64,000 nucleotides of DNA from Naegleria gruberi. Taxonomy: Eukaryota. The position numbers and the translations under genes are program-made. Under the pieces are notes generated by a model. The model saw only the letters and a program-made list of their open reading frames with translations, ran no database searches and had not been told where the DNA came from. Shown here piece by piece: positions 59,401 to 59,570 of the stretch (positions within the stretch are counted from its first letter, which is position 1; every line of letters begins with the position of its first letter). Where the stretch lies: assembly GCA_000004985.1 (NCBI GenBank), contig GG738846.1; one strand, given 5' to 3'.

Positions 59401-59570
59401 ACGCGCAATTGACGTCAAGAATTATCGTCAATTCTTAATGATTTATTATCAATTTTTGACGTCAAAAATTGATAATAAATTGATAATGTTTTGTATCAAA
59501 TATTGATGAAAAAACATCAATAATTACGTCAAAAAATTCATAATAATTATTGTCAATTATTGACTAAATT
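59401..59570. repeat. palindrome-dense element with TTGACGTCAA (CRE-like TGACGTCA) cores
   Basis: TTGACGTCAA at 59409-59418. Perfect 40-bp palindrome at 59441-59480 (atttattatcaatttttgac|gtcaaaaattgataataaat) centred on ACGT. tattgatg-aaaaaa-catcaata at 59501-59522. TACGTCA half-site at 59524-59530. gtcaattattgac at 59552-59564. Confidence 0.7.

What the first reader, a model, noticed from the sequence alone, without database searches (positions are those of the whole stretch)
59401..59570. Cluster of perfect palindromes built on TTGACGTCAA (CRE/ATF-like) cores in a 3-kb gene desert next to the large gap
Within 170 bp there is a perfect 40-bp palindrome centred on ACGT, a second TTGACGTCAA decamer, a TACGTCA half-site, an 8-bp inverted pair split by A6, and a GTCAAT/ATTGAC inverted pair. 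The surrounding 57.1-60.0 kb has no credible ORFs. A stack of long perfect palindromes on bZIP-type TGACGTCA cores is not expected by chance in one-third-GC DNA. Candidate roles are a replication origin or cruciform site, a transposon terminus, or a strong bZIP-bound regulatory module.
Basis: seen in the sequence. Interest (0 to 1): 0.5.

Follow-up and report, generated by a model that had tools for sequence, protein, structure and literature searches.

The report
Transposon end with repeated binding-site palindromes
The palindrome cluster is real, but it is the repeat-studded inner edge of one end of a cut-and-paste DNA transposon in the amoeba Naegleria gruberi, whose near-identical copies elsewhere probably caused the adjacent assembly gap, so it is an ordinary kind of feature.

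Summary
There is a perfect 40-nt palindrome at 59441-59480, two TTGACGTCAA decamers and three further inverted pairs, all far beyond chance.

The window is Naegleria gruberi nuclear DNA. The cluster lies 160-330 bp inside the left end of a DNA transposon at 59240-61888. The element has 9-bp inverted termini (CCCGCTAAA...TTTAGCGGG) flanked by ATT/ATT. The 1169-N gap interrupts it. It ends with the C-terminus of a TNP2/DUF4218-like transposase (61236-61728).

The repeated unit is the hexamer CGTCAA. Eleven of its 21 copies in the window sit in two arrays just inside the two ends. TTGACGTCAA is two hexamers head-to-head.

Related elements in N. lovaniensis give the comparison. Three copies are 99.5-99.9% identical over 5.9 kb, and a second family is also present. 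They have CCCGC termini, 2-bp target duplications and CGTYAA arrays at both ends. The first hexamer lies at the same distance from each end as in the window. They contain no TGACGTCA octamer.

A metagenome contig that is 99.7% identical to the window stops matching exactly at 61888.

Best reading: subterminal binding sites for an element-encoded protein, as in CACTA (En/Spm) and Ac elements. The binding itself is inferred, not shown. I found no support for a replication origin or a host bZIP module.

The parts
59237..59239 (.). Left copy of the putative 3-bp target-site duplication, ATT
   Evidence: Read directly from the sequence. The same ATT follows the right terminus at 61889-61891. A chance match has probability 1/64.
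59240..59248 (+). Left terminal inverted repeat, CCCGCTAAA
   Evidence: Its exact reverse complement lies at 61880-61888. N. lovaniensis elements begin with CCCGCTACTC or CCCGCACCCC. The left end aligns in the same order, starting from the terminus, with the L003 and L002 left ends (blastn E 3e-9 and 1e-6; nhmmer E 0.001).
59279..59564 (.). Left subterminal array: ten CGTYAA/TTRACG hexamers in both orientations (59279, 59288, 59367, 59398, 59409, 59413, 59426, 59456, 59460, 59527) plus degenerate ATTGAT/GTCAAT variants
   Evidence: The first CGTCAA lies at +40 from the terminus, exactly as in the N. lovaniensis L003 element.
59401..59570 (.). The finding itself: the palindrome-rich inner part of the left array, +162 to +331 from the terminus
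   Evidence: Positions +162 to +343 align a second time to +7 to +187 of the L003 left end. TRF reports a 47-bp period. Together these suggest the array was lengthened by local duplication.
59409..59418 (.). TTGACGTCAA decamer: two hexamers head-to-head, sharing the central CG
59441..59480 (.). Perfect 40-nt palindrome centred on the second TTGACGTCAA (59456-59465)
59501..59522 (.). TATTGATG-A6-CATCAATA inverted pair. It resembles TTATTGACG-A6-CGTCAATAA in the L003 left end, with CG changed to TG/CA in both arms
59552..59564 (.). GTCAAT-T-ATTGAC inverted pair
60067..61235 (.). Assembly gap (1169 N) inside the element. It hides the rest of the transposase gene and any second gene
   Evidence: Copies 99-99.7% identical exist elsewhere.
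61236..61728 (+). C-terminal part of the transposase ORF, including the stop codon. This is the TNP2/DUF4218-like family, annotated here as NAEGRDRAFT_61835
61746..61790 (.). Inverted pair ACTTGGAAATTT / AAATTTCCAAGT just after the stop codon. Function unknown
   Evidence: It is also present in L007.
61821..61852 (.). Right subterminal array: TTGACG, TTGACG and CGTCAA at 61821, 61835 and 61847
   Evidence: The pair TTGACG-N6-CGTYAA lies at +37/+49 from the right terminus in both the window and L003/L004.
61880..61888 (-). Right terminal inverted repeat (TTTAGCGGG on the + strand)
   Evidence: Metagenome contig L007 is 99.7% identical to window 61236-61888. The similarity stops exactly at 61888 and the flanking sequence then differs.
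61889..61891 (.). Right copy of the putative target-site duplication, ATT

Best explanation
The cluster is the subterminal repeat array of the left end of a cut-and-paste DNA transposon of Naegleria gruberi, at window 59240-61888. The element has CCCGCTAAA inverted termini, an ATT target duplication and a TNP2/DUF4218-like (CACTA-Mirage-Chapaev-type) transposase gene at its right end. Its interior is lost in the assembly gap.

The functional unit is the hexamer CGTCAA (CGTYAA in relatives). It recurs in both orientations, often as inverted pairs. TTGACGTCAA and the 40-nt palindrome are such pairs.

By analogy with En/Spm (TNPA 12-bp motifs) and Ac (AAACGG repeats), these motifs are most likely cooperative binding sites for an element-encoded protein. 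That protein could be the zinc-finger N-terminus of the transposase or the second ORF seen in N. lovaniensis copies. Binding would mark the ends and bring them together for excision. The inverted pairs suggest that the protein binds as a dimer.

Shown here: the identity as a transposon, the ends, and the conservation and placement of the motif. Inferred: protein binding, and which protein binds.
For: (1) Organism and gene.
- The window is N. gruberi.
- The ORF at 61236-61728 belongs to a family with several N. gruberi paralogs. Three are in the cluster at 90% identity or more, on three different scaffolds or contigs. Others are 56% and 38% identical.
- Distant family members hit DUF4218 (59.6 bits), Transposase_21 and DUF1258.
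- GDGVSPF, ADLPARSEIL, FCHLC and DSMHxLYEG are conserved among the aligned Naegleria-family proteins.

(2) Ends of related elements.
- Three N. lovaniensis insertions, 99.5-99.9% identical over 5.87 kb, sit in different gene neighbourhoods. They define the ends as CCCGCTACTC...GAGAAGCGGG, with 2-bp duplications AA, TG and GA.
- The L002 element has CCCGC...GCGGG ends and a GA duplication.

(3) Ends in the window.
- CCCGCTAAA at 59240 and its complement at 61888 are both flanked by ATT.
- The right boundary is confirmed by L007.

(4) The motif.
- Eleven of the 21 CGTCAA hexamers in the window fall in two arrays just inside the two ends. The probability of the left array is about 6e-14.
- In the L003 and L004 copies, 15 of the 20 CGTYAA hexamers within the element lie in the first 230 bp and 2 in the last 55 bp.
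- The two L002 arrays are inverted relative to each other.
- The first hexamer is at +40 on the left, and a pair at +37/+49 on the right, in both species.
- The left ends align in the same order from the terminus.

(5) In N. lovaniensis the two genes diverge from a central 172-bp spacer. The terminal arrays are therefore not the promoters there.

(6) The role of subterminal repeats as cis-determinants bound by TNPA in CACTA elements is established (PMC2613891).
Against: - No second copy of the left end from N. gruberi could be retrieved. The genome is not in the retrievable index, and the 20-mer core of the 40-mer (JGI metagenomes) and its 24-mer core (IMG/VR) gave no copy of the element.
- The termini are CCCGC rather than the CA...TG usual for the CACTA-Mirage-Chapaev-Transib group (PMC12730594).
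- Pfam matches of the Naegleria proteins themselves are below threshold.
- The AlphaFold model was unusable, with pLDDT 34.
- The duplication is 3 bp here but 2 bp in N. lovaniensis.
- As assembled, the gap of 1169 bp is too short for a full 690-751-aa transposase. This copy may be internally deleted, or the gap size may be wrong.
- Protein binding was not tested.
- A more distant relative (L021/L022) shows no such array.
Confidence: 0.8

Rival explanations
1. The cluster is a host bZIP (CRE/ATF-type) regulatory module. The TGACGTCA cores would be bound by a Naegleria bZIP dimer and drive or regulate transcription, either of the element or of a neighbouring gene.
For: Two exact TGACGTCA octamers lie within TTGACGTCAA decamers. 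Decamers of the form TTRACGTYAA also occur in the L003 left end, as TTGACGTTAA and TTAACGTCAA. Palindromic sites imply a dimeric binder.
Against: Most sites are single hexamers in an A/T context, with variable spacing and orientation. Relatives use CGTTAA as often as CGTCAA and have no TGACGTCA. The same motif sits at fixed distances from both termini, which fits end recognition better than a promoter. In N. lovaniensis the element's genes start from a central spacer and not from the ends. No ORF starts downstream of the cluster in the window.
Confidence: 0.08
2. The cluster is an independent small foldback or MITE-like element that inserted into this spot. It would be unrelated to the transposase-bearing element.
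For: 59385-59606 is an imperfect palindrome of about 220 bp, and it folds better than shuffled controls, z = -4.3.
Against: The array runs without a break from the CCCGC terminus and aligns in the same order with the left ends of full-length N. lovaniensis elements. It shares its hexamer with the right-end array. I saw no separate ends or duplication around the 220-bp block.
Confidence: 0.05
3. The cluster is a chromosomal replication origin or a cruciform-forming structural site.
For: The long perfect A/T-rich palindrome can form a stable hairpin (-13.7 kcal/mol as single-stranded DNA). Iteron-like repeats are present.
Against: Its position inside a mobile element, with the same motif at both ends and conserved in another species, explains the repeats without invoking an origin. 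There is no GC-skew switch or other origin signal in the profile. Nothing in these data tests origin activity.
Confidence: 0.03
4. The perfect palindrome is an assembly or cloning artefact created next to a gap.
For: It lies about 590 bp from a 1169-N gap, in a repeat that is hard to assemble. No independent N. gruberi read-level check was possible.
Against: The surrounding array is imperfect and asymmetric. It is homologous to arrays in an independently assembled species, which also contain shorter inverted hexamer pairs. An artefactual foldback would normally be much longer and would reach the contig edge.
Confidence: 0.03

Closest known systems
CACTA (En/Spm, Tam1, Tgm) elements and the wider CACTA-Mirage-Chapaev group
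   Same: Two-gene cut-and-paste elements with short inverted termini, 2-3-bp target duplications and a TNP2/DUF4218-like transposase. They carry asymmetric subterminal arrays of a short motif in direct and inverted orientation. In En/Spm these arrays are bound by TNPA and are required in cis for excision (PMC2613891; PMC12730594).
   Different: The termini are CCCGC...GCGGG instead of CACTA/CA...TG. The motif is a 6-mer (CGTYAA), not the 12-bp En/Spm motif. The Naegleria transposases do not reach Pfam thresholds. ORF2 has no detectable similarity to TNPA or TNP1. The elements are small, about 5.9-6.9 kb in N. lovaniensis.
Ac/Ds (hAT) subterminal AAACGG hexamer repeats
   Same: Many copies of a hexamer that contains a CpG, spread over about 250 bp inside each end, asymmetric between the ends, and serving as transposase binding sites. 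This comparison rests on my own knowledge of the Ac literature.
   Different: A different transposase superfamily, 8-bp duplications and a different motif.
cAMP-response element (CRE, TGACGTCA) clusters bound by CREB/ATF bZIP dimers
   Same: The identical palindromic octamer occurs twice.
   Different: The octamer is not conserved in related elements. The conserved unit is the half-site-like hexamer, including the CGTTAA variant, placed relative to the transposon termini.

Membership tests
Cut-and-paste DNA transposon (class II, with terminal inverted repeats) | Terminal inverted repeats at both ends | tested here: met
   CCCGCTAAA at 59240-59248 and its complement at 61880-61888. The termini are homologous to CCCGC termini defined by comparing three N. 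lovaniensis insertions.
Cut-and-paste DNA transposon (class II, with terminal inverted repeats) | Target-site duplication flanking the element | tested here: met
   ATT/ATT in the window. The 2-bp duplications AA, TG, GA and GA flank four N. lovaniensis insertions. The window rests on a single insertion, with a 1/64 chance of a match.
Cut-and-paste DNA transposon (class II, with terminal inverted repeats) | Several near-identical copies at unrelated genomic sites | tested here: met
   N. lovaniensis: three copies 99.5-99.9% identical with different flanking genes. N. gruberi: three annotated paralogs at 90% identity or more on three scaffolds or contigs, plus metagenome contig L007 at 99.7% with a different flank. 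Only the right part of the element was checked for N. gruberi.
CACTA-Mirage-Chapaev (TNP2-type) superfamily | Transposase with the TNP2 (Transposase_21) catalytic domain and the DUF4218 region | tested here: inconclusive
   P0008 (N. gruberi) matches Transposase_21 at E 0.006, below the cutoff. The distant relative P0022 matches DUF4218 at 6e-5, DUF1258 at 1e-4 and Transposase_21 at 5e-3. P0017 matches DUF4218 at 59.6 bits, above the cutoff, and is linked to P0004 by phmmer at E 2.7e-7. P0023 has no hit. The PDB profile search was empty. The AlphaFold model had pLDDT 34.
CACTA-Mirage-Chapaev (TNP2-type) superfamily | [quoted passage not shown] | tested here: inconclusive
   A conserved FCHLC (C-x2-C) follows ADLPA, and DSMHxLYEG follows later. 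I did not identify a clear H(3-4)H motif.
CACTA-Mirage-Chapaev (TNP2-type) superfamily | Termini 5'-CAC(TA)...GTG-3' (CA...TG in most members) | tested here: not met
   The termini are CCCGC...GCGGG in the window and in the two N. lovaniensis families; contig L006 shows the same CCCGC at its left end, its right end lying off the contig.
CACTA-Mirage-Chapaev (TNP2-type) superfamily | Target-site duplication of 2-4 (2-5) bp | tested here: met
   2 bp at four N. lovaniensis insertions and 3 bp in the window. The expected range is taken from PMC12730594.
CACTA-Mirage-Chapaev (TNP2-type) superfamily | Asymmetric subterminal repeat arrays in direct and inverted orientation | tested here: met
   Window: 10 hexamers on the left against 3 on the right. 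L003: 15 against 2. L002: 8 against 4.
Kyakuja-Dileera-Zisupton transposons | KDZ transposase domain; 8-bp duplication (Zisupton) | tested here: not met
   No KDZ Pfam family appeared for P0008, P0023 or P0025, even at E up to 0.1-1. The duplications are 2-3 bp.
CRE/ATF bZIP binding-site cluster | TGACGTCA octamer as the conserved, recurring unit | tested here: not met
   There are two octamers in the window. There are none in L002 or in the left and right ends of L003/L004, where CGTYAA hexamers are nevertheless abundant.
CRE/ATF bZIP binding-site cluster | Occupancy by a bZIP dimer | not testable with these tools
   This needs ChIP or gel-shift assays with Naegleria proteins.
Replication origin | Initiation of DNA synthesis at the site | not testable with these tools
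   No origin-mapping data were available. The composition profile shows no skew switch.

The most novel reading that the evidence does not exclude
These Naegleria elements would form a so far undescribed lineage of TNP2-like transposons specific to the Heterolobosea. Their distinguishing features would be non-canonical CCCGC termini and a conserved CpG-containing hexamer, CGTYAA, as end-recognition code. The decamer TTRACGTYAA would be read by a dimeric element protein, or the element would borrow a host bZIP. The central CpG could make binding sensitive to methylation in an organism that has both DNA methyltransferase and Tet enzymes.
Probability: 0.25. Interest if true: 0.35.

Novelty: new member of a known kind. 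Interest (0 to 1): 0.2.

Why it matters
The result removes a candidate 'origin or bZIP enhancer' and replaces it with a concrete transposon annotation. That annotation gives the ends, the target duplication, the motif arrays and the cause of the assembly gap in N. gruberi.

For transposon specialists there are two points of modest interest. The hexamer is conserved across species and placed at fixed distances from unusual CCCGC termini. The N. lovaniensis copies look recently active, at 99.5-99.9% identity. This offers a small, tractable system for studying end recognition in a TNP2-like element outside plants and animals.

Beyond that the finding is ordinary.

Tried and rejected
- **Retrieving N. 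gruberi DNA.** I tried proteins of the window and P0001, P0004, P0006 and P0008. None is on record. Guessing a small ORF in the left end also failed.
- **Within-window search.** I looked for a second copy of the cluster and found only self-palindromic alignments. Direct alignment of the left and right arrays was weak, because they share motifs rather than alignable sequence.
- **JGI metagenome scan** for AATTTTTGACGTCAAAAATT. It gave 13 hits, none a copy of this element.
- **IMG/VR scan** for the 24-mer core. No hits.
- **Pfam scans.** The local ORFs, P0023 and ORF2 gave nothing useful.
- **PDB profile search.** Nothing.
- **AlphaFold of P0023** from a 3-sequence alignment. The pLDDT was 34, so I ran no fold search.
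- **Joining the two flanks** to look for a disrupted host gene. No ORF was restored.
- **Third CCCGCTAAA at 14366.** It has no hexamer array nearby and is taken as chance.
- **Distant relative L021/L022.** No arrays and no clear ends; uninformative.
- **Literature.** I found no paper describing this Naegleria element. Repbase and Dfam could not be consulted.

Full report
**Observation.**
- The perfect 40-nt palindrome ATTTATTATCAATTTTTGAC|GTCAAAAATTGATAATAAAT lies at 59441-59480.
- TTGACGTCAA lies at 59409 and 59456. These are the only two copies in the window, against 0.09 expected.
- TACGTCA lies at 59525, TATTGATG-A6-CATCAATA at 59501-59522 and GTCAAT-T-ATTGAC at 59552-59564.
- Dinucleotide shuffles of 59240-59640 never gave a perfect arm longer than 12 nt. 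They gave 5.0 +/- 3.1 palindrome hits with arms of 6 or more, against 17 observed (five of these are the 40-mer at different loop sizes).
- The region folds better than shuffled controls as single-stranded DNA. For 59380-59620 z is -4.3. For the 40-mer alone the energy is -13.7 kcal/mol and z is -8.6.
- TRF reports a 47-bp period at 59408-59506.
- The large gap is 60067-61235, 1169 N.

**Context.** The window is nuclear DNA of Naegleria gruberi. The ORF at 1606-4092 is 100% identical to an N. gruberi predicted protein on a 1.0-Mb scaffold. The rest of the window carries ordinary, compact eukaryotic genes.

Just right of the gap, 61236-61728 (+) encodes the C-terminus of a protein with a 99%-identical paralog on another N. 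gruberi scaffold (P0004). The cluster at 90% identity or more contains NAEGRDRAFT_71000, NAEGRDRAFT_76885 and NAEGRDRAFT_61835. The last is on the window's own scaffold. It also contains a metagenome protein. Further N. gruberi paralogs are 56% identical (P0006) and 38% identical (P0008, 690 aa).

Distant family members match DUF4218, with P0017 at 59.6 bits and above the cutoff. P0008 and P0022 match Transposase_21 (tnp2) weakly, and P0022 also matches DUF1258 weakly. The full-length proteins conserve GDGVSPF, ADLPARSEIL, FCHLC and DSMHxLYEG. From my own knowledge of TNP2-type transposases, these resemble their DGFNPF, DFPA, CxxC and D-MH-E motifs. I therefore treat the protein as a TNP2-like (CACTA-Mirage-Chapaev-type) transposase, but only tentatively. 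The Naegleria proteins themselves stay below Pfam thresholds. A PDB profile search found nothing. The AlphaFold model was unusable, with pLDDT 34.

**The repeated unit.** CGTCAA/TTGACG occurs 21 times in the 62.6 kb of the window that is not N, which is the number expected from base composition. However, eight copies lie in 59279-59527 and three in 61821-61847. The Poisson probability of the left array is about 6e-14. Two CGTTAA variants lie in the left array as well. TTGACGTCAA is simply two hexamers head-to-head, sharing the central CG. The two arrays bracket the gap and the transposase fragment.

**Related elements define the ends.** The N. gruberi genome could not be fetched, but N. lovaniensis could.

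Protein P0023 (751 aa) is encoded at three loci, L003-L005, with different neighbouring genes. The loci are 99.5-99.9% identical over 5.87-5.89 kb and unrelated outside that span. This fixes the ends as 5'-CCCGCTACTC...GAGAAGCGGG-3', flanked by 2-bp duplications AA, TG and GA. A second N. lovaniensis family, in L002, has CCCGCACCCC...AAGAAGCGGG ends with a GA duplication. A third relative, L006, starts with CCCGCACAG.

In these elements the CGTYAA hexamers are concentrated at the ends.
- L003 and L004: 15 of 20 lie in the first 230 bp and 2 in the last 55 bp.
- L002: the arrays lie at 4660-4790 and 11285-11345 and are inverted relative to each other.

**The window element.** CCCGCTAAA lies at 59240-59248 and its exact complement at 61880-61888. 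Both are flanked by ATT.

The first CGTCAA lies at +40 from the left terminus in both the window and L003, within the same TTTTTTCGTCAAA context. A TTGACG-N6-CGTYAA pair lies at +37/+49 from the right terminus in both. The window's left end aligns in the same order, starting from the terminus, with the left ends of L003 (E 3e-9) and L002 (E 1e-6). Window positions +162 to +343, which include the finding itself (+162 to +331), align a second time to +7 to +187 of L003. Together with the 47-bp period, this suggests the array was extended by local duplication.

The right boundary has independent support. ENA metagenome contig L007 is 99.7% identical to window 61236-61888, and the similarity ends exactly at 61888, after which the flank differs. 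In L007 the copy is truncated at its 5' side.

The finding therefore sits 160-330 bp inside the left end of a transposon spanning 59240-61888.

**Palindromes in relatives.** The L003 left end contains:
- TTATTGACG-A6-CGTCAATAA
- TTATTATGA-N4-TCATAATAA
- the decamers TTGACGTTAA and TTAACGTCAA

L002 contains CGTCAA-A-TTGACG and AATTGAT-N8-ATCAATT. Inverted hexamer pairs are thus a feature of the whole group. The 40-nt perfect palindrome is an extreme example, so far seen only in this copy. The window's TATTGATG-A6-CATCAATA looks like the L003 pair with CG changed to TG/CA in both arms. That is consistent either with CpG decay or with a change that keeps the symmetry. The two sites are not demonstrably orthologous.

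**Mechanism.** Shown: the identity as a transposon, the termini, the duplication, and the conservation and positioning of the motif. Inferred: the function of the motif.

In CACTA elements the subterminal repeats are cis-determinants of excision and are bound by TNPA. They are asymmetric between the ends and diverge between families (PMC2613891). From my own knowledge, Ac behaves similarly with AAACGG repeats.

By analogy, the CGTYAA sites are most likely binding sites for an element-encoded protein. One candidate is the CxxC...CxxC region of the transposase. The other is the 411-506-aa ORF2 of the N. lovaniensis elements, which has heptad leucine repeats but no Pfam domain. The inverted pairs would be bound by dimers that help pair the ends.

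In N. lovaniensis the two genes diverge from a central 172-bp spacer. The terminal arrays are therefore unlikely to be the promoters.

**Why the gap is there.** The gap lies in the interior of the element, and copies 99-99.7% identical exist elsewhere, which is a typical cause of assembly breaks. As assembled, 1169 bp is too short for the roughly 530-590 missing transposase residues. Either this copy is internally deleted or the gap size is underestimated. This remains open.

**Rivals.**
- A host bZIP/CRE module is disfavoured because the octamer is not conserved while the hexamer is. The placement of the motif also tracks the termini.
- An independent foldback or MITE is disfavoured because the array is continuous with the terminus and aligns in the same order with the ends of full-length elements.
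- A replication origin has no support and could not be tested.
- An assembly artefact is unlikely given the homologous arrays in an independently assembled species, but N. gruberi reads were not available to me.

**Comparison and novelty.** The element works like a CACTA/En-Spm-type transposon end. Membership in the CACTA-Mirage-Chapaev group is supported by the 2-3-bp duplications and the subterminal arrays, and weakly by the transposase similarity. The CA...TG terminus rule is not met (PMC12730594). I found no paper describing it. Repbase and Dfam could not be checked.

I rate it a new member of a known kind, of low general interest.

Noticed in passing
window 56161-57148, and 34838-37071: A tandem pair with about 526-bp spacing (56187-56389 and 56713-56915, 93% identical) has inverted relatives in the other low-GC block at 34.9-37.1 kb, which itself holds repeats spaced 1.1-1.6 kb apart. 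The short ORFs share the peptide KKMSIYFHLLFHQEDQIFGFFIQQQIN. This is probably another dispersed repeat family.
   Followed up: no
window 23352-24105: Inverted repeats with arms of 77 nt (78% complementary) and 51 nt (88% complementary), about 500-600 bp apart, lie in the lowest-GC kilobase of the window (GC 0.22) next to a 50-N gap. This may be a foldback or MITE-like element.
   Followed up: no
window 61746-61790 and 61912-61920 (also 59604): TTCCAAGTT recurs around the right end. An inverted pair lies just after the transposase stop codon and is also present in L007. Another copy lies in the flank outside the element. Its meaning is unknown.
   Followed up: partly
L018 (Ga0163180_10377033) 745-1031: This metagenome contig (GC 0.32) carries at least 14 TTGACGTCAA or TTGACGTTAA decamers at a period of about 21 bp. 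They are preceded by inverted 'cctgataacagcgga' repeats. It shows the same CGTCAA/CGTTAA alternation as the Naegleria transposon ends. Its origin is unknown.
   Followed up: no
L009, L011, L014, L019, L020 (metagenome contigs, GC about 0.6): These contigs carry arrays of GAATTTyTGACGTCArAAATTC-type palindromes about every 31 bp. They are probably bacterial or phage iteron- or operator-like repeats and are unrelated to the window.
   Followed up: no
L005 12352-18837 (N. lovaniensis PYSW02000069.1): The last 38 bp of the transposon's right end recur, inverted, 6.4 kb away at the end of the contig. The genes between them (nSTAND/ATPase and adh_short) are mirrored, which indicates a large inverted duplication bounded by transposon ends. 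The truncated copy in L007 also abuts an adh_short fragment.
   Followed up: no
L002 859-3621 (N. lovaniensis PYSW02000024.1): An ORF of about 900 aa with a Phage_integrase (tyrosine recombinase) domain lies about 0.9 kb from the left end of the L002 transposon. It is probably a DIRS- or Crypton-like element.
   Followed up: no
window 40002-40280 and 43418-43770: Inverted similarity of 83-85% over arms of about 52 nt links the region at 40.0-40.3 kb to the 5' part of the EGF-repeat receptor kinase gene at 40929-43805. This is probably a paralogous gene fragment.
   Followed up: no
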